A DNA stretch of 43,515 nucleotides, filler included, from Jimgerdemannia flammicorona (taxonomy: Eukaryota): NCBI GenBank assembly GCA_003990765.1. It is 2 parts of 2 records of this genome, joined end to end, with 100 filler letters (N's around TTAATTAATTAA, not from the genome) between each part and the next. Parts side by side here need not be neighbours in the genome. Positions count along the whole stretch, not along the records: positions 21,809 to 43,515 come from RBNJ01001407.1; 1 more part is not named here. One strand, written 5' to 3'. A program made the position numbers and the translations under genes. Shown piece by piece: positions 1,351-40,793 of the stretch. Under the pieces are notes generated by a model. It was not told where the DNA came from. It searched no databases and saw nothing but the letters and a program-made list of their open reading frames with translations. The first letter of the stretch is position 1, and every line of letters starts with the position of its first letter.

Positions 1351-2112
1351 ATGTCTCGTCTTGTTATCGCCCTCCTACTATGCTTTCTGATAGTGGTTAT
1401 TGCTCAACCTCAGGCCTCTACCTCAGCGGCTGATCCGACATTCACGCCCGCGACCACAGTTACGCCTTCGCTCTTCGCCGGTCCTTCGTCGTCGGTCGAG
1501 TTTTCGCTGTCGTCGACCCAGCCTTCGTCGTCGGCTGGGCCTTCGTCGTCGCCGACCGAGTCTTTGTCGCAGGCGGACAAGCCTTCCACCACACCTTCGA
1601 CCACTCCTTCGGCCATGCCTTCGGGTACGCCTACCTTCGTTGATCCCGGACCGTGCGTGGACAACTGCAGCCTTGTAAGCATAATTTTTACCACGTCTTC
1701 CCTATTCCATCTTCAAACCGCTCAGCAATTAACCGCTTTTTCCTCTCCATCTCTCCCTTCCCAGACTATCGGCAAAGCTGTTTGCGGTAGCACCTTCGCT
1801 AATGACCCTATTGCCAACAAGACGTGCATCTGCTCGACCACCAACGGCTTCCAGGCTCAGGTCTCCTCTTGCTTCCAGACAAACCAATGCCCAGCAGCTA
1901 ACATATCCATCGCCATGAACCAGACCTCTCAAATTTGTGGAAATATGACCATGAACATGACCACGGCTAACACGACCATGAATCCGAATGCCGCCTCCAC
2001 CTCCGCCACCGTCTCGACCACCGCGTCGCCGAAGCCCAACGGCGCGGAAGGCCTGACGGCGGGATTGTACGTCTTCACGATCGCAGTGGTTCTGGCTAGC
2101 ATGCTTTTGTAG
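1351..2112 (+). CDS. Secreted Ser/Thr/Pro-rich CFEM-domain protein, probably GPI-anchored; exons 1351-1674 and 1765-2112, ~223 aa
   Basis: ATG at 1351 opens a hydrophobic signal peptide (MSRLVIALLLCFLIVVIA). Phase-0 intron GTAAGC(1675)...ATTAAC branch point (1728-1733)...pyrimidine tract...CAG(1764). The spliced product has 8 Cys spaced C-x3-C-x8-C-x13-C-x-C-x12-C-x5-C-x15-C, as in CFEM domains. The C-terminus PNGA followed by a hydrophobic tail (LYVFTIAVVLASMLL) fits a GPI signal. CpG is retained, unlike in the surrounding TEs. Confidence 0.88.
   Translation: MSRLVIALLLCFLIVVIAQPQASTSAADPTFTPATTVTPSLFAGPSSSVEFSLSSTQPSSSAGPSSSPTESLSQADKPSTTPSTTPSAMPSGTPTFVDPGPCVDNCSLVSIIFTTSSLFHLQTAQQLTAFSSPSLPSQTIGKAVCGSTFANDPIANKTCICSTTNGFQAQVSSCFQTNQCPAANISIAMNQTSQICGNMTMNMTTANTTMNPNAASTSATVSTTASPKPNGAEGLTAGLYVFTIAVVLASMLL
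1675..1764 (+). other. 90-nt spliceosomal intron (3n, stop-free)
   Basis: GTAAGC donor, ATTAAC branch point, polypyrimidine tract and CAG acceptor. Removing it restores CFEM Cys2-Cys3 spacing. Confidence 0.85.
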
Positions 2113-3003: not shown

Positions 3004-4097
3004 GGTAATAAAACTATATGCTGATAGAATTAATACATTACAGATAATCAATAGTAACTATCAGCTCTAAGTTCTGAGTTCTTAAGAAAGTGCTATTCCA
3101 ATTATCTATTGTGGTAGAGTTCAAGTATTGCTTTTAGATTCTTTTGCTAGTGGGAGGGCTGTACTTGTATTCCAAGTTGATCAGGCTCAGAATTATTAAT
3201 AAGTTGGATCTGAGAGTTTCTTGTAATAAGAATACTGCTTTATTCTTATATTCAGAGAAAGTGGAGCTGAGGTTACAATACATTCAGTATAGAGAATATT
3301 TATATATATTTAAAGACTATAACTAAATATAGTATATTAAGTATATCTATATATAGTTATACTACTTTGGATAACTATAACTACTAGTTGGAAATTCTAT
3401 AGAAATTTCTGTAGAATTTCCATTAGAATTTTCAAAGACTTATAGATATATATATATAATAATTTCTCTTCTTTATTTAAGCCTACTCATTAGACTTAGT
3501 ACTAAACTCTAGATATTTGTTAAATTGAAGGATAGTATACTAAACTACTTAAAAAACAATTTTGCTCTATTATTCATTATTCAAATTGATAATATTCTTA
3601 GAAGATACTCTATGAAGATAATCAAGAACTTAGAGTTAAGTACAGAAAAGGATATAGAGTCTTTTGGTAACTATATAAGTGTGGTTGTCAATAAAAAGAT
3701 AGTCTCATTGTTTGATAGCACTGAGGGTAGCTTATTGATAGATAAGACATTCTATCTTATAGTACTTCTTAAGTTCTTATTAATATTAGAAAATCTGAAA
3801 TTATTGGATATTATTAGACTTTATTTAGATCAGAGTATCTAGAGATTCATATATATGGTAGTTCAGTAAAATTCCATTGATATTCAATTGCTTTAAAGAT
3901 AGTGGTGGTAATTTTTTTCTTAACTTATTCTCAGTATTATTACTGGATACTTATATTGGGAGAGAGGGGGATAGATTATCTATATAAAATTATTTAGGCT
4001 ATTTATACTTCTTTTCACTGAAGTTATTCAGAAGTATAACTGTCTTTTGGAAATTTTATCAGAATTTTCATTATACTAAATATTTATATATATCAGA
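3004..4097 (-). mobile_element. Gypsy A' 3' remnant: 3' LTR (~3004-3460), PPT (~3461-3478) and degenerate accessory ORF
   Basis: 3004-~3440 is the reverse complement of the LTR at 4098-4532. A purine tract (AAATAAAGAAGAGAAA on the minus strand) abuts it. Upstream on the minus strand the frame reads KKYYKIECLI...VTKRLYILF. Confidence 0.7.
3500..3950 (-). pseudogene. Gypsy accessory ORF (copy in A'), stop-riddled
   Basis: Minus-strand translation from ~3776: ELKKYYKIECLIYQ*ATLSAIKQ*DYLFIDNHTYIVTKRLYILFCT*L*VLDYLHRVSSKNIINLNNE**. A TATA-like GTATAAATAG lies upstream at 4008-3999. Ends approximate. Confidence 0.6.
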
Positions 4098-21808: not shown

Positions 21809-24351
21809 CAACCCACAATTCATGAGCTCTTTTGACCTGTGAAATGGTTACTGGCAAATTGCCATGAAAGAAGAAGATATCTACAAGACAGCTTTCTGAA
21901 CTCGCTATGGACACTTTGAGTTCCTGGTTATGTCCTTTGGCTTAACTAATGCTCCAGCAACCTTCCAGACTCTGATGAATACCATTCTGCACCCATACCT
22001 GGACAAATTCATTGTTGTCTATATTGATGACATCCTAGTCTTCAGCAAAACCCTGGAAGAACATCTTGAACACCTTGAACTAGTACTACTGAAACTCCAA
22101 GAAAACTGACTCTTTGCAAAACTCAGCAAGTATGAATTTTTTCTGAAAGAAATTCAATTCCTTGGACACATTGTCACTCCGAATGGAATTAAAGTGGACC
22201 CCAGCAAAATCTCTGCAATCAAAGATTGGCCCACACCCAAGAAGCTGAAAGACCTCCAGTCATTTCTGGGATTAGCAAACTATTACAGGTGATTCATTGC
22301 CAACTTTGCTAAAATTGCTACTGCCCTCACCCAAATGACCAAGCACAACAAGAAACAAGAACAACCCTGGACCATGAAACAAGAGAAAGACTTCAACAAT
22401 CTTGTAACATGGGGACCTGAACAAGATACTGCCTTTCAAGCACTGAAAGATGCTCTGATAACCACACCAGTACTTCAAGCGGCAAACCCTGCCCTACCAT
22501 ATGAAGTCACCACTGATGCCTCTGACCTAGCCCTTGGAGCAGTGCTCATGCAAGAAGGACACCCTGTGGCCTATCACTCCCACAAGTTCAATGATGCCGA
22601 AATCAACTACGCAACTCACGAGAAGGAAATGCTAGCCATCGTAGACACTCTGATCAAATAGCGACCATACCTAGAAGGAGCACACTTCACTGTATTGACT
22701 GACCACAAGTCATTAGTCAACATCAAGACCCAGGCTACTCTTTCTCGAAAGCAAGCCAGATGGATGAAAGTCCTCACCAACTTTGACTATGAAATCCAGT
22801 ACCGCCCTGGCAAGGAAAATATTGTTGCCGATGCAATCTCCAGACCACCAATCGAAGAGGTTATCCAAACTCTGACGTTGGTTACCAACACTATCATGAA
22901 ACAAATCATTGCAGCATGTGTTGATGATAAAGAAGCTCAAGCACTCCGAGAAATCCTGAACAATGATGATACCGACAAGCATACCCAGTACAATCAATAC
23001 CAACTCAAGGACAATGCTTTCTACTACAAGGACAGATTGTATGTTCCAAACAACCGAGACCTCCGAAGGACTATCCTATTCAAATGTCATGATGCCCCTA
23101 TAGCTGGACATTTAGGATTTGATAAATGTTACGAAGTTATCTCCCGAAACTTCTATTGGCCCCACATGGCAGATCAGCTCAAGACCTACATCACTTCCTG
23201 TGATGCCTGCCAACGAAACAAGTCCTTAACCTGGCTTACTCCACCCTATTCTGGTACCATCCACAAATTGGGAAAAAATCTCTATGGACTTCATTGTACA
23301 ACTACCTAGAACCAAGAACAGGAAAGATGCAATTGTTGTCCTTGTGGACTATCTCAGCAAACAAGCTCACTTTGTGCCTACTACTACTACTGTAACAGCA
23401 CCAGACATAGCCACACTCTTGTTTGACAACATCTTCCGCTATCATGGTCTTCCCAAGATCATTGTTAGTGACCGAGATCCGAAATTCACCAGCCACTTTT
23501 GGAAGGCCCTCCATACGCACCTTGGAACAAAACTTGCACTATCCACAGCCTTTCACCCTGAAACTGATGGCCAAACTGAAAGAATGAACCGAACTCTGGA
23601 ACAAATGCTAAGGAACTATGTCTCCTACAGACAAGATGATTGGCATGAACACCTCACCACAGTAAAGTTTGCCTATAACAACAGCAAGCAAGCCTCTTTA
23701 GGAATGACCCCATTCTTCACTAATACCAGACAAAACCCAAACACCCCTTTAACACTTATCCGAACTACTGAAGAACCCTCCACAGTCGAAGCTGTTGAAG
23801 AATTCCTACTCCAAATGCGCAATCTAAGCCAGATCGCAATTGAGAATTTATCATGAGCTCAAGAACAACAGTCACAGTATGTTAACCAACACTGCTGAGA
23901 AGAAACTTTTGATATTGGAGAAAAAGTTCTACTGGACATCAGAGGATACCGAGTTGACAACCTTAAGCACAGACCATCCACAAAGCTGAACAGCAAGTTC
24001 ATTGGACCATTTGAAGTCATCACACAAGTCTCTCTAACCTCCTACAAACTAGCACTACCGGACGCCATTAAGATTCACCCAGTCTTTAATGTTCAATGTC
24101 TCAAGTGATACAATGATAATAATGACAAGCTATTTCCAAATCGGACCACCAAACCACCTGCACCTGTCATTATTAATGACCAAGAAGAGTATGAAGTTGA
24201 ACAAATCCTCAACAAACATGGCAACAAGAACCATCCCGAGTACCTTGTCAAATGGAAAGGTTACCCGATCCACGATGCAACCTGGGAACCCAAGACCAAT
24301 CTCCAGAATACTACTGACCTAGTTCAGGAATATGATTCCTTAAACAACTAG
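21809..24351 (+). pseudogene. pol of Gypsy C (partial)
   Basis: Near-intact reading frames broken by a few TGA/TAG stops and a frameshift near 23230. Confidence 0.92.
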
Positions 24352-24881
24352 AACCAAACACTCTGCACCTATCTGTACATACCATATATTATCCTCCCAA
24401 ACATTATAATTATTGTGAACCAAACCAAGAACTCAGCAAAACAAGACAAGAATACTGACCCTCTGAAAAAATAGCAAAACTGAAAGCAAGCCTATTCTCC
24501 CCATACCACTGGTGGGAAACGAGGCGTAGACATTTAAGAAGATTTCTTAGAGGAAATTCTCCAGCAGTAAATGACATCAGAATCACTTCCGGCGCATGGC
24601 ATTGAACACACGACCCTTTAACGTGTGAATCCAACACATTAGGCAACTGTACTACGAGCATGCCACTTTCTGAAAAAATGGACCTTATCAGACTTTTGAC
24701 CTCCTAAATGGTGTAACAACACTAGAACAAATTAGAAGGCCCCGACGAGGACATCAAAAGCTAAGAAGGGGAGAGTTGTAAGCGCACAACCTCCAAGCCA
24801 CCGAAATTACACGTCACCCTCTGAACAAGCCATTGAAATCACACGTGACCTCTGAACAAATCTGGAAATCACCTGCTTGAT

Positions 24882-24928
24882 CACAAAGCTGAGTCAAACC
24901 AAAGTCACAGCGCACAAAGCTGAGTCAA
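24882..24928 (+). promoter_or_regulatory. Duplicated CACAAAGCTGAGTCAA containing AP-1/Gcn4-type TGAGTCA sites in LTR U3
   Basis: TGAGTCA at 24890-24896 and 24921-24927; inverse TGACTCA at 26223-26229. Function inferred only. Confidence 0.45.
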
Positions 24929-25064
24929 TACGAAGTCACAGAACACAAGATCTACACAAACGGAATCTTACCAATCAGGACCAAATGCATATATACTGAG
25001 CACCAAGATGCGTCGAATCAGAGAACCAAAACAAACAACAACCACAACTTTCCAACACACAAAC

Positions 25065-26159
25065 ATGACCACTGAGATCTACAACTGTATCCGCGCTGAC
25101 ATTTGGAATGCCATTGTCAACTGAGCCACACCCCCTCTGCCCCTCATGAATATCCATAGCCTGGTACCCCTCTACTTCGTGGAAGCCCGATGGAATGCCC
25201 TGAACAAGCTTAGCGAGGCCCACTGAATTGGACAAATCTCAAGCTACTACCAGATCGGCCGCCTCCTGGAAGACATGGTCGAACACCACCATGATACAGA
25301 TATTACCCAGATGTCTCAACACCAGAAGCTCATCACCCGCAAACATCGAGAACTCTTCTATGAGTACAACACCTTTATTCCCTGCCTCCGAGTTACTACC
25401 AGCAAAATGATTGCTACCCTGTCCTATGGCCAAATCGATGACATGATACAAGAACTCAACCACAAGTACCTTGAGTATGTCGAAACCACAGACAGAACCT
25501 TCCTGCACCCTGATGACCATATCCTACAAATGCCTCAAGTTGGATATGTCATGAAGGACATCTATGATATAATCCACTTCGACGAAGATGAAGCAGAAGA
25601 CAATGATCCCTCTGACGCCGACATAACCTCTAGCCAAGGATCTCTGCCAACCCTGATCACTCTGCCAACCTTGCCGATGAACCTACAACAGTTCATAACC
25701 ACCTACGAAACTTATTGGGACAATGACCACTGGCATGAATACCAACCCGCGTTTACCCCTGACTACTTCAACTACAATGAAGAGACCGGAGAACACAACC
25801 TGTACCTTCAGACAACCCTTGAGATTGAACCAACCACTCTACCACCCGAGTACAAGCGACATGAACAGCCACCAGTATACTATAACCCTGCAACTCATAG
25901 TGCCATAACCTATAGAAGGTACGCAGATAGTGAATCTGATGAAAGCGAAAACAATACACCCATCCTTCATCCACCAACATCTTATCCAGCCTACGAGACA
26001 GACAATGCCATCCTGTGGGATGGAGATGAAGTCCCAATGTATTACTATCTCAGCCAACAAGGAGAAGTAATCTGTGAACCATTATTCCTAGACAACTACT
26101 TCATCAGAGATGATGCAATTGATGGTGATGTCATCGAGAACTACCCAGACAGTGCCTAA
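25065..26159 (+). pseudogene. LTR-embedded accessory ORF, ~364 aa ancestral (294 aa still open from 25275)
   Basis: ATG 25065 is in frame with 25275..26159. Only two in-frame TGA stops (25122, 25224), both compatible with CGA>TGA. N-terminal motif YYQIGRLL...TRKHRELF; acidic D/E/Y/P-rich C-terminal half. Confidence 0.8.
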
Positions 26160-26990
26160 ACCTATAAATAGTCTAGCAGTCATAGTATAGTTAGATTAGC
26201 CTTGTATGACATGACTGTGAACTGACTCAGCAGTCAGACGATCTCTTAACATGTCAGATTACACTTGTACTACATGACTGCATTCCGACTCAGCAAGGCA
26301 CTTAGTGCTACATCCATATCTAGCATAGTCCAGATAGCCCCTCACTAGTATAAATACCCCCTCCCCCAGATCTCAGAATCTCAGACTTGAACAATCCAAA
26401 CACAACTCCTGAGCACTTCCCCACAATATCCCTTCACACAACTACTCCTAGTATAGCAATATCATGAATAGCAAATAAACCTATTCCATAACCCACAAAC
26501 CACTCTTAAGTAAATCCACTCTCTGTTAGGTCCCACTCCTAACCCCATTACGAAATTTCCTAATTGGGTATTGTCTGCAGCGATACGCCAATTCAACTAA
26601 GCTGGTCTTAGTTTCTTGAACTTCCTGAAATATGGAAAATCCTGAACATCCAGAACTAGTCTGAAAAAGGACTTTGGTTGAGACATCAACCCGATCTTGA
26701 AATCAATAAGCATGGAGGACGTACTCCATATGAAATTGATCTTGACCATAAGAAAACAGTCTTCCAGAATATCCAGAACTTCCAGAAAACCCTTCCAGAA
26801 CTACATAACGATTACCCTAAAAAGTAACCCTCTTACAATTCTAGTGGTTTTCTAAAATCTAGTCCAGAAGTAGCCCCATCAGGTAAAAGAGTAATAGGTA
26901 TTAATAGGACAACCTTTAACTTCAGCCTTGAAGTAGTCAGGAATTCACTTAGATCAAAGTCAATAAGAATAAAATTGTCTTCTATTCTGG

Positions 26991-27183
26991 AAAACTGACA
27001 GGTGGGAAACCAGCAGGCAAGAAACTAGCAGATAAGAAACTGGTAGGCAAGAAACTGACAGACAAGAAACTAGTAGACAAGAAATCAGTAGGTGAGAAAC
27101 TGGTAGGCAAGAAACTGATAGATGAGAAACTAGCAGATGAGAAACTGGCAGGCAAGAAACTGGCAGACAAGAAACTGATAAGA
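26991..27183. repeat. 15-bp tandem array, ~13 copies (AAACTGGCAGGCAAG-like)
   Basis: Read directly; unit differences are almost all transitions. Confidence 0.92.
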
Positions 27184-27243
27184 CAGAAGTATAGTCAATT
27201 ATAAAAAAAAAAAAATAAAGAAACTGTTCAGAATGAGATACCA

Positions 27244-27555: not shown

Positions 27556-27865
27556 AAGATACCCCTGCTCCCACTCCTACAGATAAGCCACTGCTGCAGC
27601 CAAACCCCTACTATAGTGAGAAGTAAATATATAATATAGAATAAATGCAATATACCTGAAATGAGCATCAAGGTATATCTAGAAATGAAGAAAAGAGTAA
27701 TGAGACAATGTGTCCAGATGATATATCAATGTGGGTAATAAGATGGTATACTATAATTGGTAGTAAGAATGGGGTAACAAGAACAGAGTGACAAGAATGA
27801 GGTAGTGAGAATGGGGTGGTGAGAATGAGTTAGCAAGACAGTAAGCCAGAATACTGAAATAGATA

Positions 27866-28380
27866 ATGAGACAGAGTGAGACAGAGTGAGGAGATGAGAC
27901 AGAGTAATAAATAAAGCAGAGTGAGAGAATGAGGCAGAGTGAGAAGATGAGACAGAGAGAGGGGATGAGTGAGAGAATGAGACAGAGTGAGGGGATGAGG
28001 CAGAGTGAGAGGATAAGGCAGAGTGGGGGAATGAGGCAGAGTGAGGGAATGAGACAGAGTAAGAGAATAAGGCAGAGTAAGAGAATGAGGCAGAGTGAGG
28101 AGATAAGACAGAGTGAGGGGATGAGGCAGAGTAAGGAGATGAGATAGAGTGAGGGGATGAAGTAAAGTGAGAGGATGAGGTAGTGTAAGGAGATGAGACA
28201 GAGTGAGGAGATGAGATAGAGTGAGAGGATGAGGCAGAGTGAGAGAATGAGGCAGAGTGAGGGGATGAGGCAGAGTAAGGGGATAAGACAGAGTGAGGGG
28301 AGAGTGAGAGAATAAGGCAGAGTAAGGAGATGAGGCAGAGTAAGAGAAATAAGACAGAGTAATAGAAATGAGACAGATTG
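27866..28380. repeat. 18-bp purine-rich tandem array, ~28 copies (ATGAGGCAGAGTGAGGGG-like)
   Basis: Read directly; explains the low-complexity ORFs at 27726-28457. Confidence 0.95.
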
Positions 28381-30619: not shown

Positions 30620-32212
30620 TAGTAAGGGACAAAACCTTACCAATGTTATATTATTTTTAAATCTTAATCTATTGTAATCTAAATATATATGAATATTATT
30701 AAATTCATATTTTAACTAATAATAAAGGTCTAGAATAAAACAGTATTTATTTTGCTAAATTTGTATAATTATTTCTAAAGTTATAATTCTTTTAAGTAAA
30801 CCACTCATTGGTAAGGTTTTGTCTCCCCCAATGGTTTTAATTCACTAACTCTAGCTCTATGCTTGCTCTGTACCTGAAACTTCACTCCTTTATTCTTTTT
30901 TGATATACTTTTTCCTTCCATATCTCTCACAATGAAAAAAATCTCAATTGACTGTCGCAATCACATTATTAATACTCTGAAGTCTAATATATCAATAAGT
31001 AAGATTGTGAAACAAATGGATGTCAGCACTATGACCATTTCTCATATATGAAAAGAGTTCTACAGTGGTGAGGTTATGCCACCAAAAGGAGATCACCCAT
31101 GTGTATTCTCAGCTCAAGATGAAGCATAGGTTGTTTGCCAGATTATCATGGACAAGGTGGAAACTGTAACTGAGGTCGCAAAAACACTCTAAGAAGCTGA
31201 CAAAACACTTCAAAATGGACTTCAAGATGATGGCAAACCTTCTGTAAGTGCAAAAATGGTATGGAGAACACTGAAGAGGGTCAGCCTGAAGTCAATTGTG
31301 AAGCAGAAGAGGCCCAGATTGCTCAAATGATATATTAAGACTAATTATGAGTTTGTCCTTAAATACAAGGACTGGACAATCAAGGACTGGAAATAGGTCA
31401 TCCTCTCTAATGAAATGAAGATCAACTATCTTAGCTCTGATGGTCAAAAATGGGCATGGAAAAAGCCAGAAATACTATATGACAAGTATCATATGACCAG
31501 AATGGTAAAATTCAGCAGTAGATCTGGGGATATATGATATATAAGAGGGACAGTTACACCTGTCAGATCAATGGTTGCATGGATACAGAGCTGTACTAGA
31601 GCATTCTTGACAATGAATTGCTGGAAACAATTAAATATTACCATATGGATCAGAAAAGATTGATTTTTCAGCAAGATAATAACTTGAAACATATGTCAAA
31701 AAAAACCTGCCAATAGTTCACTGATCACTCAATTTATTTGTTGAGTTGGCCAGCACAATTTCCCAATCTGAATCCAATTGAACATTTATGGTAGCAACTT
31801 AAAAAACAACTTAATGCATACAAGGAGCCCTCTAAGGGAATGTAGAATCTTTGGAAATATGTAGAGCAGGAATGGAATAGGATTCTAAAGAATGTTTGTA
31901 TTGGTTTAATTGAGAGTATACCAAGGAGGGTGGCTGCTATATATAAGGTAAAAGGGGGCTATACTAAATATTGAAATGATCAATAAACTGATTGGTGATA
32001 TGTCAGGAACAAAACCTTACCAATGGTCAGTTTTTCTAAAAGAGTTATAACTTTAGAAATAATTATTCATATTTAGCAAAATATATACTGTTTAAAAGCT
32101 CTAGACTTTCTTTATTATTGGTTAAAATATAGATTTAATAGCATTCATATTTAGACTACAATAGGTTAAGATTTAAAAAAATAAAACATTAGTAAGATTT
32201 TGTCTCTTACTG
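30620..32212 (+). mobile_element. Tc1/mariner DD34E transposon, 1593 bp, ~205-bp TIRs, TA TSD, nested in gag of Gypsy D
   Basis: TA|TAGTAAGGGACAAAACCTTACCAATG ... CATTAGTAAGATTTTGTCTCTTACTG|TA; TIRs at 30620-30823 and ~32008-32212. Confidence 0.95.
30932..31974 (+). pseudogene. Tc1 transposase
   Basis: DWK*VILSNEMKIN, FQQDNNLKH, WPAQFPNLNPIEHLW, C-terminal KGGYTKY*. 34 residues between the second D and E. Confidence 0.93.
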
Positions 32213-34089
32213 TAAGAAATGATGACAATACTATACTAGTAGCACAGAAGGCTTGGTTATAAATTACTTACTATACAGATAAGATTAAGTAAGTCCTGAA
32301 GGATCAGCTCAATATAATATGTTAAGGAATGAGCAAGGATCTCAACATATTCTACACCAGAATCTGATATTAGATAATTCTTACAAATTATTCTACCACT
32401 ATTCAAGATCAAGTAGCTAAGACAACCTTTATGAAAGGAGTCTACTCAGAAATAGTTCTAGCCATCTACTCATCACTAGTAGTTCTGAACTTGCTATAGA
32501 AAATCATCTATATTCAGTGATATTGGATAGCCAGACACCTACAAGACTATATAATGGAAAGAGTTACTAGAGTCAGAATTGAAGCACCTAAGGCAATTAG
32601 TATGATCTCTACCACAGTGATCAATCAAAACACACCTCAGCCAAGAGCTACTGAGTAGTAGAGAAACAGTAACTCAATGGAGAAACTTGCCAAGAAGTTT
32701 GCTGAAATAACAGCTCATCTGAGAGATATGGTAAAAGAAATTAAAGGAAGAGACTATTGCTCAGTTCAGAAGTTTGCTATTACCTCAGACAAGAAGATAG
32801 ATATCTGCTATACTTGTGGAGAAGAGGACCACTACTCATATAAATATATGAGTGAGACTAAGTATAAAGCTTAGCCAAACAATGTTATAAGAAATAAGAA
32901 ACAGGTCAACACTATCACCTTTAAGGAGATTAGAGAATCAGATGAAGAAGAATGAGAGATATACTCCATACAGACTACTAAGAAAGATATCCAAAAAGAA
33001 CCCTATAAGAGACTGCCAGAGAGACTTAAGAAGAACTCTATGAAAAAGCAGATAGAAACTACTACAGAAAGTCAAGGTGAAGAAATAGATCAAGATATAG
33101 AACTAGAATAGGCTGTTTAAGATATCATTCAAGAAACTACCTCAGTCAGTGAAGGAGAAAAGAAGAAGAAGCTTCACAAGACTAAGACTTTCAAGTATGA
33201 CATCTTCAAGGACCTCAGTCAATAAAAGATCAATGCAACCTTTGGTCAGCTGACAGAAATATCTATATTCAGATAGCAAATGAGATACAAACTTACTGAG
33301 ATAACTAAGAAGCAAGGTTGGAAGATAACTGAGGCCAACAATGTTTAAGAAAACTTTGGAGAAAAGAGTGAAGATAATTGCCTATACAATCTATCAAATC
33401 AAAGATAGAATCTTTAAGATCATCATTGATACTGGAGTAGGAGGATGCCTCCTTAGTAAGAAAGCAGTAGACTGCCTAAGTTGGGAGGTTGAAGAAGCAA
33501 CCAAACTGGTATTTATTACAGTAGATAACATAAGAGCCATATCTCTAGGAAAGATCTGAGATGTCCCTATTAAGTTCAGAAGAGCAACTATCTTAGTAAA
33601 TATGATCATAACCAATGCTACCAACTATAACATCCTCATCAGCAACCAGTGACTATAAAGCCAGAGCAATAATTGACCTCAATGCTCAGAAGATACAGAT
33701 TATCTACTAAGATCAGAAGATGTGAATTCCCATCAATATGTATCAATAAAGAAGTACTGCCTGAGATGGAGAAAGAAAAAAGTAAGCAAGAAGAAGTCTA
33801 CATAGTGACTATTCAGAAAAAGAAAAAGAAAGTCAGATGGATCAGTGAAGAAGAATGGTATAAAAGGATCATTGAAGAATATGTACTACAAGGAGTCTGC
33901 TCTCATAGAATCAAGATATACTATATGAAATATATTGATAATTACTATCAATATATCAGTGGAATCAAGAAAATCTATTATAAAAGAAGACAGAAGGCTC
34001 TCAAGAAATAAGCAAGATAAGAAAAAGAGAAGGAAGAGAATGATAAACCACCAGCTCTTCTAAAGAACAGTAATGATAAAGAAGAAATC

Positions 34090-34503: not shown

Positions 34504-37226
34504 AGAGGAGTATTCACTAGCACCAAGATTACCAAATTAGATTATAAGAAGAAGGAAACCACAAATAAGTATAGCTATACTATTGGAGATAAATTCCCAC
34601 TCAAGAAGAAACTCAAGAAGATACTGTATGAATTTGAGGATGTTATAGCCATAGACTTCAAGAATATCAAGAAAAAGACTCCATACTACTATTATGATAT
34701 AGATATAGGAGATACCAAACCAATTTACCAAAAAGTAAGATCAATTCCACTAGCCTATTATGAATGACTCAGAGAAGAAATCAAGCAGATGGAAGAAGTT
34801 AGTATTATCAAAGAAGTCAGTAGCCCTTGAGCTTCACCAGTTGTATTGGCTCTGAAAAAAGAAAGCAAATCAGAAGAATTTGCCCCAAGACTCTGCACTG
34901 ATTATAAAAGTTTAATCTGGCTATAAAGAAGGATCACCAACTACTGCCCCTTATCAGTAATATCCTTATAACTCTGGGAGATAAAGCACAGTACTATAGT
35001 ACCTTAAATTTATACTCAGAATTCTATCAGATTGATCTCACCAAAGCAACTAGTGAAAAATCAGCCTTCATTACTCTAGATAGAACCTATGTCTACCTAC
35101 AAATACTATTTGAAATATACAATACACCAGCAAGCTTTCAGCAAATGATGAATAAAATCTTCTACTATGACATGAAAAGATAGATAATGGTTTATATAGA
35201 TGATATTATCATCTATAGTAAGATAGCTGAAGAACATCTGCAGTACATCTAGCAGATGATAGAGAAGCTAAGGAAGTATGACCTATATATCAAGTCTAAG
35301 AAGTATAAGTTTGCAGAAATTGAGATCTCCTATCTTGGATACATCATCAACTAAGATAGAATATACACAGACCTACTCAAGATTCAAGCAGTAGTAGTAT
35401 ACCCAAGACCCACTACTATCACTGAAGTCTAAGCCTTTATGAGACTTACCTTATACTACTATAGATTTATTAGAGAATTCTCTAATATTATAGGCCCAAT
35501 CTATAAATTCAATAAGAAGGATGTCAAGTTTCAATAGACTGATAGGCAAAAAAAAGCATTTGATGAACTCAAGATCAGGTTAGTCTAAGTACTCATCCTT
35601 AGAAGATCTGATTGGATCTAAGAATTTATCCTGTAGATAGATGCAAGTACACAAAGACTAAGAGCTGTCCTGACCCAAAAGAAAGACAAAGTAGAATATA
35701 TCATCACATATCTCAGCTAAGGGATCTGAGAAGCTGAAAAAAAATATAAATCTTATAAGTTGGAATGTCTTGCAGTTATCTAGACTATAGAAAAGTTCTA
35801 CTACTACCTTGTCAGAAGACACTTCACTATTCAGATGGACTATTCAGCCCTTACCTGGCTACTAACCACCAGATAATCCAAAGAAATCTATACCAGATAG
35901 ATTATGAAGTTACAAGCTTATGATATAACCATTGTGCACTACTCTGAAAGAACTAATACCAATGTAGATGCTCTCTTATAGATACTTTAAAGGATTTTCA
36001 ACTAACAAATCAACTATAAATAAAGAACTCTACTACAGAATATCACCTATTTGAGACAGTGAAAGATACCTCAATATCTAGAAGAATAAATACAAATAAT
36101 TATCAATAGAACATGGAAACAATTTGAGACTAATAGAGAAATATTGAAAAAAGAAAAGCTATTAGTCATATCCAAATATAAGAAGAAGCAAGCAATGAAA
36201 TCAGTATATAAACTCAGCTATCTAGAAGAAACAAACATCTATGAAAAAGCAAAAAGAATAATGTGGTGACCAGGAATGAAGGAAGATATCAGACAATTTG
36301 TCAAGACCTATAATAAATATTGGAAACAGAAACAAAACCAATGAAATCAGGCCCCAGGATCAGTATAGATAGAATCAGTACCCTTCATATATATTTCAAT
36401 ATATATAATCAGCCCCCTACTGTTGACTTTGAATAGCAACTAATATATCATTATCATCATAGACCTTTTTATAAAATAGATAGAGGTAGGACCTCTCAAA
36501 GAAGTCAATATATAGTTAATTACTGATTTCTTTTACAAAGAAATCATCTGCTGATTCAAGACTCTAGCACAAGTAACTATAGATAGTGAAACAAAATTCA
36601 TGAATCAGTTCTTTGAGTTTCTCTATAAGAAGTATAAGATCTAGCACATTCAGACTATAGCCTATCACCCTCAAAGAAATAGACAAGTAGAAAGAACCAA
36701 CAAGATCCTCAAGAACATCATCACCAAGATCTATAATATGTAACTATGAAAACTAAGATCACTATCTGCCAATAGTATTATCTGCTCTTCAGGATATCTG
36801 ATCACAAAGTACCTATTTCACCCTTCAAGAGATACTGTTTGGAGAAGAAAGTTCTCAAGAAATTTTATCATCTAATGAAAATACTATATAGAAATATGTG
36901 GATATAGAAATATAGAGACTATACTAAATCAGGAAGAAAGCTGAGGATTATATAATCAAGATATAGGCACTATAGCAGAATAATGTAGAAAAAATGCACA
37001 AGTCTCTAAAAGATTATCAAGATAGAAGACAAAGTCCTAGTATATCAGAACATGATAGAAGCTTCATGGTCATGAAAACTAGAGCCTAAGTAGGAAGAAC
37101 CTTACCTTATGCAAAATATAAAAAGAACTACCTTTTGGCTATAAAAACTCTCAGGCACAATTATCTCTACTATCATTCACTGAAACAGACTCAAGAAGTA
37201 TCATAGCTAATCAACAGAGTACTGCT

Positions 37227-37770
37227 ATAGCCCTCAAGATCACCAGTACTACACAATGAGCCATAGAAAGACAATGGTATACTACTGAGCTACTGATCAT
37301 GAAAGAATTCTTTGATAGTATTCAGAGTATAATCCAGATACACTTATCACAAATCTTGTACTTCAAGGCCTACCAGAACTAGACTGAGTTTTAAGAATAT
37401 TTCAAGTTAGAACAACTACTAAACTCACAGTCAGAGATAAGAAAAGAAGACTAGATTAGAGAGTACCAGCTCTCTTACACTCAGATTACTATTACCAAAA
37501 GAGTGTACAAGTTATTTAAAGAAGATAAATAAGCTCTAGCTCATTTCTGAGAAGTAGCTCTAGAAAACTTTGGATATATCAAGAAATACTATTGGAAGAA
37601 CATAATGACATAAATCATACAGTACAAAGAGATACAAATTATAGAAGCTTGGAAGTTTGAGTGAATAAGATACTCTAGAGATAAATTATCTATTCAGGAG
37701 TAAGTTATGATGATTGATCTAAATTAGAAATATGAATTAAGAGAATAGACATTCGATCATAGTATCTAAA
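37227..37770 (+). pseudogene. Gypsy accessory ORF (copy in D), ~180 codons, between integrase and 3' LTR
   Basis: One frame reads ...EYFKLEQLLNSQSEIRKED*IREYQLSYTQITITKRVYKLFKEDK*ALAHF*EVALENFGYIKKYYW.... Start is ATA (inferred mutated ATG) at 37227. Confidence 0.68.
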
Positions 37771-38178: not shown

Positions 38179-38329
38179 TTGTACAAATCTATACAAATCA
38201 TACATCTATATAATCTATATAATTATAAGTTTTATATGGTTGTACTTTTATATAATTATATAAATTATATAACTATAAGATTAAATAACTATTAAATTAT
38301 AATATTATACTATATTGGGAATCAGACTC

Positions 38330-38855
38330 AGATACTATAATCAAATATCTATCTTTTGATTATATTTCCTAATTTAAATTAACTGTTACAACTTCTTTCT
38401 AAATAAGTAATTTTATCTTTAAATTATCTTATTTAAACTCTCAAGCTTCTACTAGTTATATATTCTGATATTGTATAATCTGTCCAATTATATTCTCTCA
38501 ATAATCTACCAGAAATCTTCTAGAACTACTTCTCAGAAATGAGTTAGAGCTTACTTATTATTTTTGAATAATTTGTAGATCTACTTGATAATAGTGATTT
38601 GAGTGTAAGATATCTAACTGATAATCTACTCTCCTTTGGTCATATTTTTCTTTTTATTTAGTAATTATCTCAACTTGAAGTATTTTTAAAACTCAGTACA
38701 GTTTTGTAGACTCCAAAATATAAAATACATATAAGTATATCTATATATATAATACTTTGAATACTATCAAATAATTCCTCTATAGCCAGTAGTTTAATAG
38801 AGCATTATTATCTTTCTATAACTTACTAGATAGTACTAGTGATCTTGAGAGCTAT
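38330..38855 (-). pseudogene. Gypsy accessory ORF (copy in E)
   Basis: Nucleotide homologue of 37227-37770; reads YFKLR*LL...SYTQITIIK*IYKLFK...ALTHF*EVVLE. Confidence 0.65.
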
Positions 38856-40793
38856 AGTAGTACTTTGTTAGTTAGCTATAGTATTTCTTGAGTTATTTTT
38901 GATAAATAGTAATAAGGATAATTATATGTATCTAATAATTTCTGTAGCCAAAAGATAATTTCTTTTATATTTTATACAAGATAAGATTCTTCTCACTTAG
39001 GCTCTAGTTTTTACAACTATAAAGTTTTTACTATATTTTAACATATCAGAACTTTGTCTCTTATCTTGATAATCTCTAAGAGTTTATAGATCTTCTCTAT
39101 ATTATTCTATTATAATGTCTGTATCTAATTATGTAATTTTCAGCCTTCTTTCTTATTTGATACAATCTTTGTATCTTGGTGTCTACTTATTTTCATATTG
39201 TATCTCTATTAGATAATAAGGTTTCTTTAGAACTCTTTTCTCTGAATAGTAATTTCTGAGAGATAAAGTGAGTACTTGTGATCATATATCTCAAAGAGCA
39301 GATAATGCTATTGGTAGATAGTAGTCTCAATTTTTATAGTTATTGTAGATCTAGTAATAATATTCTTAAGAATCTTATTAGTTCTTTCTATCTGTCTATT
39401 CTCTTAAAGATGATAAGCTGTAATTCAAATATACTGAATCTTGTACTTCTTGTAGAAAACCTCAAAGAGCTGATTTATAAATTCTATTTCTCTGTCTATT
39501 ATTACTTACTTCAGTATCTTGAATTGGCAGATAATTTCTCTATAGAAAAAATCAGTAATTGACTATATATTAACTTCTTTGAGGAGTCCTACTTTTATTC
39601 ATTTTGTAAAGTGATCTATAATAATAATAATATATTGGTTACTAGTTAATTTCAGGGATAGAGAGCTAGTTATATCTATTACAATATAGGCAAATAGTAC
39701 TAGTTTTATATCTGATAACTCTGGTATCTGATTTCATTAATCTTGCTTTTAATTCTAATATTTATTACAGATCTTGACAAATTATCTAATATCTTTCTCT
39801 ATTCCTAGTTACTATATTATTCTTCTTATTTTATTATAGATATTTATTCCTCTTAGATAGCTAAGTTTATATACTGACTTTATTACTTACTCTTTTTTAT
39901 ACTCTGATATAACTAGTAGTTTTCCTTTTTTAGTATTTCTCTATTGGTTTTAAATTATTTCTATATTCTGTTAATAATTATTTATATCTATTCTTTTAGA
40001 TATTAGAGCATTTTTTACTATCTCAGATAGATGATAATTCTATAGTAAAGTTCTTTATTTATATATATCTGTTTTATTAGTTGTAGGTCTTTTAGAGTAT
40101 CTGTAAGAGAGTATCTATATTAGTATTAGTTTTTTCTAAATGGTAAATGATAGTTATATCATAGACTTATAGTTTTATAATCTGTCTGATAAATATTTCT
40201 TTGAGTTTACTTATAGTCAACAACTAGGTAAGGGCTGAGTGATCTATCAGGATGATGAAATGTTTTCTTATAAAGTAGTAGTAGAACTTCTCTACAGTTC
40301 AGATAACTGCAAGATACTCCAACTTATATAATTTATATTCTCTTTCTTCTTTATGAGTTTCTTAGCTGAGATATATAATTATATACTTAACTTTATTCTT
40401 CTTTTATATAAAAACAGCTCTTATCTAATTAAGCTCACATCTATCTATAGAATAAACTCTTAAGATCAGTCAGATCTTCTCAGAATAGATATCTAGATCA
40501 ATTAGATCTTGAGATATTCAAAGCTTATTACTATCTATCAGTTTATTGAAACCTGATATCCTTCTTAAATAGATTATAGATAGAACCTATAATATTGGAG
40601 AATTTTTTGATAAATCTTTTATAATAGGTAGTGAGTCTCATAAAGACTTGGATTTTAGTAACTATAGTAGGTTTTAGATAGACTGCAACTACTTAAATCT
40701 TAATAAACTCTAGTCTAATTGATGATATATCTAAGGTATAAGATCTCAATTTCTGTAAACTTATACTTCTTTAGCTTAATAAATAGATCATAC

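What the first reader, a model, noticed from the sequence alone, without database searches (positions are those of the whole stretch)
24777..26837. 2.06-kb LTR with a ~364-codon gene inside U3
Seen: a PPT at 24763-24775 is followed by TGTAAG, and the matching CTTACA comes 2061 bp later. Inside is a sense ORF (25065-26159) with a TATA-like CATATATA near 24989 upstream; a second TATAAATA lies downstream near 26349. The other LTRs resolved here are only ~400-435 bp. The ORF adds ~200 acidic/aromatic/Pro-rich residues that the D homologue lacks. Established: U3-encoded genes exist in complex retroviruses (MMTV sag, HIV nef overlap). Inference: the accessory gene moved from the pol-LTR spacer into the LTR. 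It would then be duplicated in each element and survive in solo LTRs, and the acidic tail could be an activation domain.
Basis: partly seen in the sequence, partly recalled or inferred. Interest (0 to 1): 0.75.

Follow-up and report, generated by a model that had tools for sequence, protein, structure and literature searches.

The report
Selected gene inside retrotransposon LTR
The 2-kb end repeats of an abundant jumping gene in a probably fungal genome carry their own protein gene, kept under strong selection and related to extra genes of other jumping genes there; the layout is known from mouse mammary tumour virus, and the protein's job is still unproven.

Summary
Confirmed, with one correction. 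24777-26837 is the 3' LTR of a Ty3/Gypsy chromovirus (gag-dUTPase-PR-RT-RH-IN-chromodomain). The same 2.04-2.11-kb LTR occurs as 5' LTR (before a tRNA-iMet primer site), 3' LTR and solo LTR with 5-bp duplications; the genome holds 3,443 exact LTR starts. The 364-codon gene is real: shared variants give a non-synonymous/synonymous ratio of 0.08 over 96 copies (integrase 0.04). The window copy is dead (stops at codons 20 and 54); open copies exist elsewhere. Putative RNA contigs peak just after the TATA at 26349, which places the gene in U3 (weak evidence). Its first ~140 residues belong to an unnamed helical family shared by six repeat families; sister elements D and E carry it on opposite sides of the same PPT, so it switches position, direction unknown. 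A non-autonomous 1.49-kb-LTR sister spread without it. Best guess: a trans-acting transcriptional activator (0.4), not shown. No Pfam, PDB or literature match was found in my searches. The scan noted this kind of gene before, on other pieces of this genome.

The parts
21810..24351 (+). Decayed pol remnant (RT, RNase H, integrase, chromodomain) of the element; its 5' part is lost at the scaffold gap
   Evidence: domains by Pfam on sister copies L044 and L011
24352..24762 (+). Non-coding spacer between integrase stop and PPT
   Evidence: no frame shows selection, ratios 0.5-0.9, none significant, 21 copies
24763..24775 (+). Polypurine tract
   Evidence: precedes 1,197 LTR starts genome-wide, control 0
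24777..26837 (+). 3' LTR, 2061 bp, TGTAAG...CTTACA
24890..24927 (+). Two TGAGTCA motifs (AP-1/Gcn4-type site, label recalled) upstream of the gene
   Evidence: kept in 37 and 41 of 41 aligned rows; function not tested
24988..24995 (+). TATA-like box of the putative upstream promoter for the gene
   Evidence: TATATA core in at least 39 of 41 rows; start site not mapped
25065..26159 (+). 364-codon accessory gene in U3; dead in this copy (stops at codons 20 and 54)
25065..25484 (+). Helical N-terminal domain (codons 1 to about 140), member of the family shared with elements D-H
   Evidence: leave-one-family-out profile; alignment A4
25581..26156 (+). Acidic, aromatic, Pro-rich tail (codons 173-364), also under purifying selection
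   Evidence: ratio 0.06; conserved in environmental relative P0001
26223..26232 (+). TGACTCAGCA motif upstream of the main TATA
   Evidence: 39 of 41 rows; function not tested
26349..26356 (+). Main TATA box; the U3/R border is inferred at about 26385-26410
   Evidence: 41 of 41 rows; depth rise in two putative RNA runs
26474..26479 (+). AATAAA, candidate poly(A) signal
   Evidence: 41 of 41 rows; cleavage site not mapped
26838..26842 (+). ATTCT, probable target-site duplication
   Evidence: an LTR preceded by ATTCT on another contig (L114) is the closest of 82 other copies, 95.0% against 93.3% for the next; rare shared alleles do not single it out (5 of 22, tied)
37203..37664 (+). Decayed 153-codon homologue ('D'), directly after the integrase and before the PPT of a distant Gypsy element without chromodomain

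Best explanation
Shown: this is the 3' LTR of an autonomous Ty3/Gypsy chromovirus whose LTR carries a protein gene that active lineages kept under purifying selection as strong as on gag and integrase, and that is copied into both LTRs and solo LTRs. Inferred: the LTR has two promoters. The upstream one (TGAGTCA pair, TATA at 24988) makes a short mRNA for the gene, ending at the R poly(A) site; the downstream one (TATA at 26349) starts the genomic RNA, so the gene lies in U3 and does not block gag translation. Committed guess on function: the protein acts in trans as the element's own transcription regulator, like foamy-virus Tas. The helical N-domain would bind the LTR or a factor on it, and the acidic-aromatic tail would recruit the host machinery to raise genomic RNA from the main promoter.
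For: Selection: shared variants other than C>T/G>A, 42 of 2244 non-synonymous against 110 of 490 synonymous sites (0.08, p 1e-52, 96 copies); integrase 0.04, gag 0.07; non-coding LTR parts 0.4-1.6. Both halves are selected, 0.05 and 0.06. Both LTRs: 7 of 7 same-contig pairs carry the gene in both LTRs, with an exact TSD in 4 and a near one in 1. U3: depth in two putative RNA runs is 954 and 4,720 in the bin at window ~26390-26620 against 14 in the bin just upstream, while a DNA run is flat across both (2,122 and 2,175). Trans action: non-autonomous copies lacking RT/RH/IN also lack the gene yet spread (14 of 60 LTR starts). Activator-like features: a recalled acidic-activation-domain rule fires at aa 205-277 and 289-364 and on the tails of families E, F, G, not on RT, IN or dUTPase-PR. 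In the D model the best-predicted part (aa 60-113, three helices) matches helix-turn-helix regulators TrpR, Lrp/AsnC and ScpB at Z 5.9-6.4. No transmembrane segment.
Against: No functional test. The D homologue has no acidic tail yet is selected equally (0.08; no window passes the rule), so the core function does not need the tail. The acidic rule also fires on a gag linker. The tail is well conserved (39 of 50 identical to P0001 at aa 211-260), more than I recall for activation domains, and may fold. The helix-turn-helix hits are within the tool's background (model pLDDT 51; best Z 7.4 went to unrelated helices); the full-length model is unusable (pLDDT 32). The N-domain is not basic (pI 5.7). 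The RNA evidence is contigs from runs only guessed to be RNA, of another sample; the upstream start site is unmapped, and 17 of 41 rows have an extra ATG between that TATA and the start.
Confidence: 0.4

Rival explanations
1. Anti-silencing factor: the protein protects the element from host DNA methylation or heterochromatin rather than activating directly.
For: Copies are heavily hit at CpG (C>T in 14-22% of CpG positions against 2-7% in other contexts), a sign of methylation; a helical binding domain plus an interaction tail fits. Precedent (VANC of plant VANDAL DNA transposons) is recalled, not tested.
Against: No sequence link to any such factor; gene-less non-autonomous LTRs decay in the same range as gene-bearing ones (5'/3' identity 90-95% against 86-94%).
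Confidence: 0.2
2. RNA-level regulator (Rev/CERV-like): it binds the genomic RNA and controls export, stability, translation or packaging.
For: An LTR retrotransposon precedent exists (CERV of Cer1, PMC10309623, abstract read). In D and G the gene overlaps the integrase stop, as if co-translated. Both N-domain queries list a phage translation-repressor cluster among ESM Atlas neighbours (0.89 and 0.93; lead only).
Against: No Arg-rich motif; the protein is acidic (pI 4.3); no similarity to known RNA-binding families.
Confidence: 0.2
3. Accessory component of the particle or integration complex (chaperone, nucleic-acid mimic, host-protein inhibitor).
For: Acidic, aromatic, conserved tail; highly acidic proteins often mimic nucleic acids (recalled).
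Against: Separate promoter-like elements and no fusion to gag or pol in this family; nothing positive.
Confidence: 0.15
4. Passenger: a captured or nested sequence without a role for the element.
For: All 40 gene-bearing copies of the start-picked sample are broken; a sister family multiplied without it.
Against: Selection equal to integrase in one frame only; fixed position; homologues in five other repeat families. Broken copies are expected after insertion (C>T singletons are neutral, ratio 1.3).
Confidence: 0.02

Closest known systems
MMTV sag/naf ORF in the U3 of the betaretroviral LTR (PMC9412291, passages read)
   Same: A whole gene inside U3, present in both LTRs, with a second promoter in U3 (P2) besides the main one.
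   Different: Here a Ty3/Gypsy element without env; no sequence similarity shown; no transmembrane segment; Sag is a superantigen, a role that cannot apply in a fungus.
Foamy-virus Tas/Bet accessory genes (PMC3185757, passages read)
   Same: Accessory gene at the 3' end with its own promoter; Tas activates the LTR in trans, the role proposed here.
   Different: The foamy internal promoter lies in env and only one ORF extends into the LTR; here promoter-like elements and gene lie wholly in the LTR. Activation is shown for Tas and only guessed here.
Additional ORFs of LTR retrotransposons: plant aORFs (PMC7264820, first third read), rotifer ORF3s (PMC5408684, passages), CERV of Cer1 (PMC10309623, abstract)
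   Same: Conserved extra gene of unknown origin, shared between distant lineages; the D and G versions sit in the usual place between pol and the 3' LTR.
   Different: The passages I read place those ORFs in the internal region, not in the LTR; no family match to env-like, GDSL or DEDD types (Pfam blank).
Fungal chromoviruses with dUTPase (PMC2864245, passages) and crapaud of Podospora with variable U3 halves (PMC10787394, passages)
   Same: Chromodomain integrase, dUTPase ahead of protease, subfamilies that differ in the 5' part of U3.
   Different: No U3 gene is mentioned in the passages read; crapaud is drawn with two ORFs only.

Membership tests
Ty3/Gypsy chromovirus | Order gag-PR-RT-RH-IN | tested here: met
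   Sister copies L043, L044, L011: dUTPase, protease, RT, RNase H, H2C2, rve in this order
Ty3/Gypsy chromovirus | Chromodomain at the integrase C-terminus | tested here: met
   PF00385 E 3e-17 in L011; window copy 92% identical
LTR retrotransposon | TG...CA direct repeats, TSD, PBS, PPT | tested here: met
   5-bp TSD in 4 of 7 same-contig pairs and 6 exact solo LTRs; PBS TGGTAGCAGCGG matches the 3' end of a CAT-anticodon tRNA gene present twice in the genome
LTR retrotransposon | Clade assignment by RT phylogeny (such as Tcn1) | not tested
   No reference RT set was fetched
U3-encoded accessory gene (MMTV sag layout) | Gene wholly inside both LTRs | tested here: met
U3-encoded accessory gene (MMTV sag layout) | Gene upstream of the genomic RNA start | tested here: inconclusive
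   Depth step after the TATA at 26349 in two runs only guessed to be RNA, contigs only
U3-encoded accessory gene (MMTV sag layout) | Own mRNA from a second U3 promoter | not testable with these tools
   Conserved motifs only; low-depth contigs over the gene cannot show a start
env-like ORF | Transmembrane segment or signal peptide | tested here: not met
   Highest 19-residue hydropathy 0.86
Helix-turn-helix DNA-binding regulator | HTH fold | tested here: inconclusive
   D model aa 60-113 against TrpR, Lrp, ScpB at Z 5.9-6.4, within background; no Pfam HTH above cut-off
Tas-like trans-activator | Binds the LTR and activates it in trans | not testable with these tools
   Needs a reporter and a binding assay

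The most novel reading that the evidence does not exclude
A fungal Ty3/Gypsy element has independently reached the design of a complex retrovirus: a two-promoter LTR that encodes its own trans-activator. The gene belongs to an undescribed family that moves in and out of LTRs across distant Gypsy lineages, and every solo LTR is a self-contained expression cassette for it, so thousands of copies could act on the family, on its non-autonomous parasites and on host genes.
Probability: 0.35. Interest if true: 0.85.

Novelty: new variant of a known kind. Interest (0 to 1): 0.62.

Why it matters
LTRs of retrotransposons are treated as non-coding in annotation and as neutral clocks for dating insertions. 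Here half of a 2-kb LTR is a gene selected like integrase, in a family with thousands of LTR copies. It gives a testable case of an env-less retroelement with a retrovirus-style accessory gene, a new protein family with intact natural members to assay, and natural contrasts (gene inside the LTR, gene in the spacer, gene lost in non-autonomous copies) to learn why such genes enter U3.

Tried and rejected
Direct comparison of the window ORF with the window's D ORF: no signal (tblastn, phmmer, shuffled local alignment); two-family profile comparison weak (E 0.044, probability 1%). Pfam: nothing for the ORF, nothing above cut-off for 18 family members; PHROGs best E 0.024; PDB sequences best E 0.09. 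Protein searches found only P0001 and P0014 for this gene, 9 close relatives for D and 3 representatives for the D profile; the wider six-family profile could not be run against that library. Contig scans found no relative. AlphaFold of the full protein failed (pLDDT 32); the viral fold search with the D model gave nothing under E 0.26. The dimer prediction gave no answer. No RNA holder is on record. Old-looking copies (L157, L165) are decayed members, not a new subfamily. The two promoter regions are not duplicates of each other. Self-priming rejected: longest complement of the PBS in the LTR is 7 nt. The 700-bp middle of the short LTR shows no clear coding signal (ratios 0.44-0.77, stops common in all frames). 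A first tRNA pattern missed; one search was the wrong frame. Recalled resemblances to DUF3102, DUF1016 and WW domains got no Pfam support and are dropped.

Full report
OBSERVATION. The coordinates hold: PPT 24763-24775, TGTAAG at 24777, CTTACA ending at 26837, TATA-like boxes at 24988 and 26349. The frame 25065-26159 has 364 codons but two in-frame stops (codons 20 and 54), so this copy is dead. Upstream lies a decayed pol that runs into a scaffold gap; the 5' half of the element is not in the window.

IT IS AN LTR. A genome search gave 46 matches from 40 scored candidates, many starting and ending at the two proposed ends. Of 40 distinct full-length copies (2040-2112 bp), 17 are followed by the primer site, 13 preceded by the PPT, 1 has both, 8 are solo with a 5-bp duplication (6 exact) and 1 is solo without. 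The primer site matches 12 nt at the 3' end of a CAT-anticodon tRNA gene found twice in the genome (CCA added). Seven same-contig pairs 8.3-8.6 kb apart have the gene in both LTRs, with LTR identities of 86-94%; the TSD is exact in 4, near in 1 and absent in 2. Four further 5'/3' pairs on separate contigs share a TSD and are sisters in a tree (support 0.88-1.0); one other TSD match was not a sister. A copy preceded by ATTCT, the window's 3' flank, is the closest of 82 others (95.0%) and is probably the missing 5' LTR. The genome has 3,443 exact LTR starts (control 1), 1,197 of them after the PPT. The internal region (about 6.5 kb) encodes gag with a CCHC motif, dUTPase, protease, RT, RNase H, integrase and chromodomain: a Ty3/Gypsy chromovirus. 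The host is probably a fungus; this is inference from the element type and a host-like gene at 1351-2112, not a test.

IT IS A GENE. Open copies exist: 20 of 59 full-length copies picked by similarity and 47 of the 112 best protein matches (my count). In 60 LTR starts taken in list order from the largest contigs (2 at contig ends skipped), 40 carry the gene, none open; 14 are a shorter LTR type and 6 are cut or interrupted. Singleton C>T/G>A changes are neutral (ratio 1.3) and concentrated at CpG, as expected for decay after insertion. Shared changes of other types show strong selection: 0.08 over 96 copies (42 of 2244 against 110 of 490 sites), against 0.04 for integrase (12 copies), 0.07 for gag (27) and 0.4-1.6 for non-coding LTR parts and spacer. 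The other sense frames give 2.4 and 2.8; the antisense frame sharing third positions gives 0.19 but has 23 stop columns. N-domain and tail are selected alike. These are counts of alleles against the commonest codon, not tree-based rates.

U3 OR R. Four runs were laid on a 5' LTR plus internal region. In two runs guessed to be RNA, depth is 954 and 4,720 in the bin at window ~26390-26620, 14 in the bin upstream, mostly under 20 over the gene (bins of 75 and 279 in one run, owed largely to one 9.6-kb contig about 82% alike) and 0-11 over gag-pol. A DNA run is flat across that step. The step falls just after the TATA at 26349. This fits a main start there and the gene in U3, but contigs cannot map starts and the runs are from another sample. 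Upstream of the gene, a TATA-like box and two TGAGTCA motifs are conserved.

RELATIVES. No Pfam, PHROG or PDB match. One environmental relative is 65% identical over aa 115-364. Element D (about 32.2-38.2 kb; no chromodomain; RT about 31% identical) has a selected 153-codon ORF overlapping its integrase stop. Pairwise evidence was weak. After earlier scan notes pointed to more families, the D profile found four more (E, F, G, H) in the fetched loci. A profile of D-H without this family found 11 of 11 members (E 2e-6 to 4e-3; 16.8-27.2 bits; best of 7,794 reversed decoys 10.1), 183 of 258 untrimmed chunks above that decoy, and the window copy at 16.0 bits. D, E and F link strongly; G and H more weakly. 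Homology covers about aa 1-140. Family E has an integrase about 70% identical to D's in DNA and nearly the same PPT, but its gene lies after the PPT, inside an LTR that recurs 7.2 kb away on several contigs; D has it before the PPT. G has it after integrase; F has it in what looks like an LTR (one copy read). So the gene changes sides of the PPT, and a U3 location occurs in two distant lineages. The direction was not tested.

NON-AUTONOMOUS SISTER. A 1.49-kb LTR shares the first 50 and last ~735 bp, but ~700 unrelated bp without clear coding signal replace the gene. The 3 elements examined keep gag-dUTPase-PR, lack RT, RH and most of IN, and have exact TSDs. The gene is therefore dispensable in cis, like pol.

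MECHANISM. Shown: a selected gene carried by both LTRs. Inferred: a second promoter in U3 and a short mRNA. Guessed: a trans-activator (0.4), from trans action, a helical domain with weak helix-turn-helix hits and acidic-aromatic tails in C, E, F and G. Against it: D lacks the tail, the rule also fires on gag, the fold hits are in background, and the domain is not basic. Rivals are anti-silencing (0.2), an RNA-level role (0.2) and a particle accessory (0.15).

LITERATURE. Eight full-text searches returned no report of a gene wholly inside the LTR of a fungal or other Ty3/Gypsy element; the library lacks most subscription papers, and I opened no supplements or repeat databases, where such an element may be listed. 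Read: PMC7264820 (first third); passages of PMC9412291, PMC3185757, PMC5408684, PMC2864245, PMC10787394, PMC3601003, PMC3248453, PMC7497039, PMC3212995 and bioRxiv 10.64898/2026.05.04.722472 (the last five gave nothing on LTR-borne genes); abstract of PMC10309623. The layout is known from MMTV sag; the protein family and its place in this element class were not found described. Earlier notes of this scan report the same kind of gene on other pieces of this genome; they are leads, not independent support.

VERDICT. Real feature, new variant of a known kind, function open. Interest 0.62.

Noticed in passing
window ~3560-3870, minus strand: Heavily decayed sixth member (family H) of the same accessory gene family; about 40 similar places scored in the genome.
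   Followed up: partly
window ~38300-38990, minus strand: Second, inverted, decayed D-type element facing the first (long inverted repeats 35-43 kb), with its own decayed copy of the 153-codon ORF.
   Followed up: partly
L123, L124, L177-L179 (G000:C5, C7): Non-autonomous 4.9-kb-spaced family with a 1.49-kb LTR whose U3 middle is swapped for ~700 bp of unknown origin but keeps the last ~18 codons of the gene.
   Followed up: partly
L044, L009, L016, just after the primer site: The gag frame is under selection within the first 600 bp after the primer site (0.07), yet no ATG is seen near its start in the copies read; gag has a long N-terminal extension, and the start may be non-AUG, spliced or in U5.
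   Followed up: no
run X13, record of 9,601 nt: A high-depth contig matches only 233 bp of the gene's tail at about 82% and continues with related coding sequence; possibly an expressed distant relative.
   Followed up: no
L072, L014, L017, L024, L029: LTRs preceded by a PPT region and followed by a primer site, as in tandem elements sharing one LTR.
   Followed up: no
window 1351-2112, plus strand: GC-rich 253-aa host-like ORF with signal-like N-terminus, Ser/Thr-rich body, Cys cluster and hydrophobic end; looks like a GPI-anchored CFEM-type protein (recalled; no Pfam hit).
   Followed up: no
window 26985-27219 and 27790-28380: 15-bp and 18-bp tandem arrays on the purine-rich strand of a decayed poly(A)-tailed element next to the LTR.
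   Followed up: no
window 30620-32260: Decayed Tc1/mariner-like transposase frame between inverted repeats (seen; label recalled).
   Followed up: no
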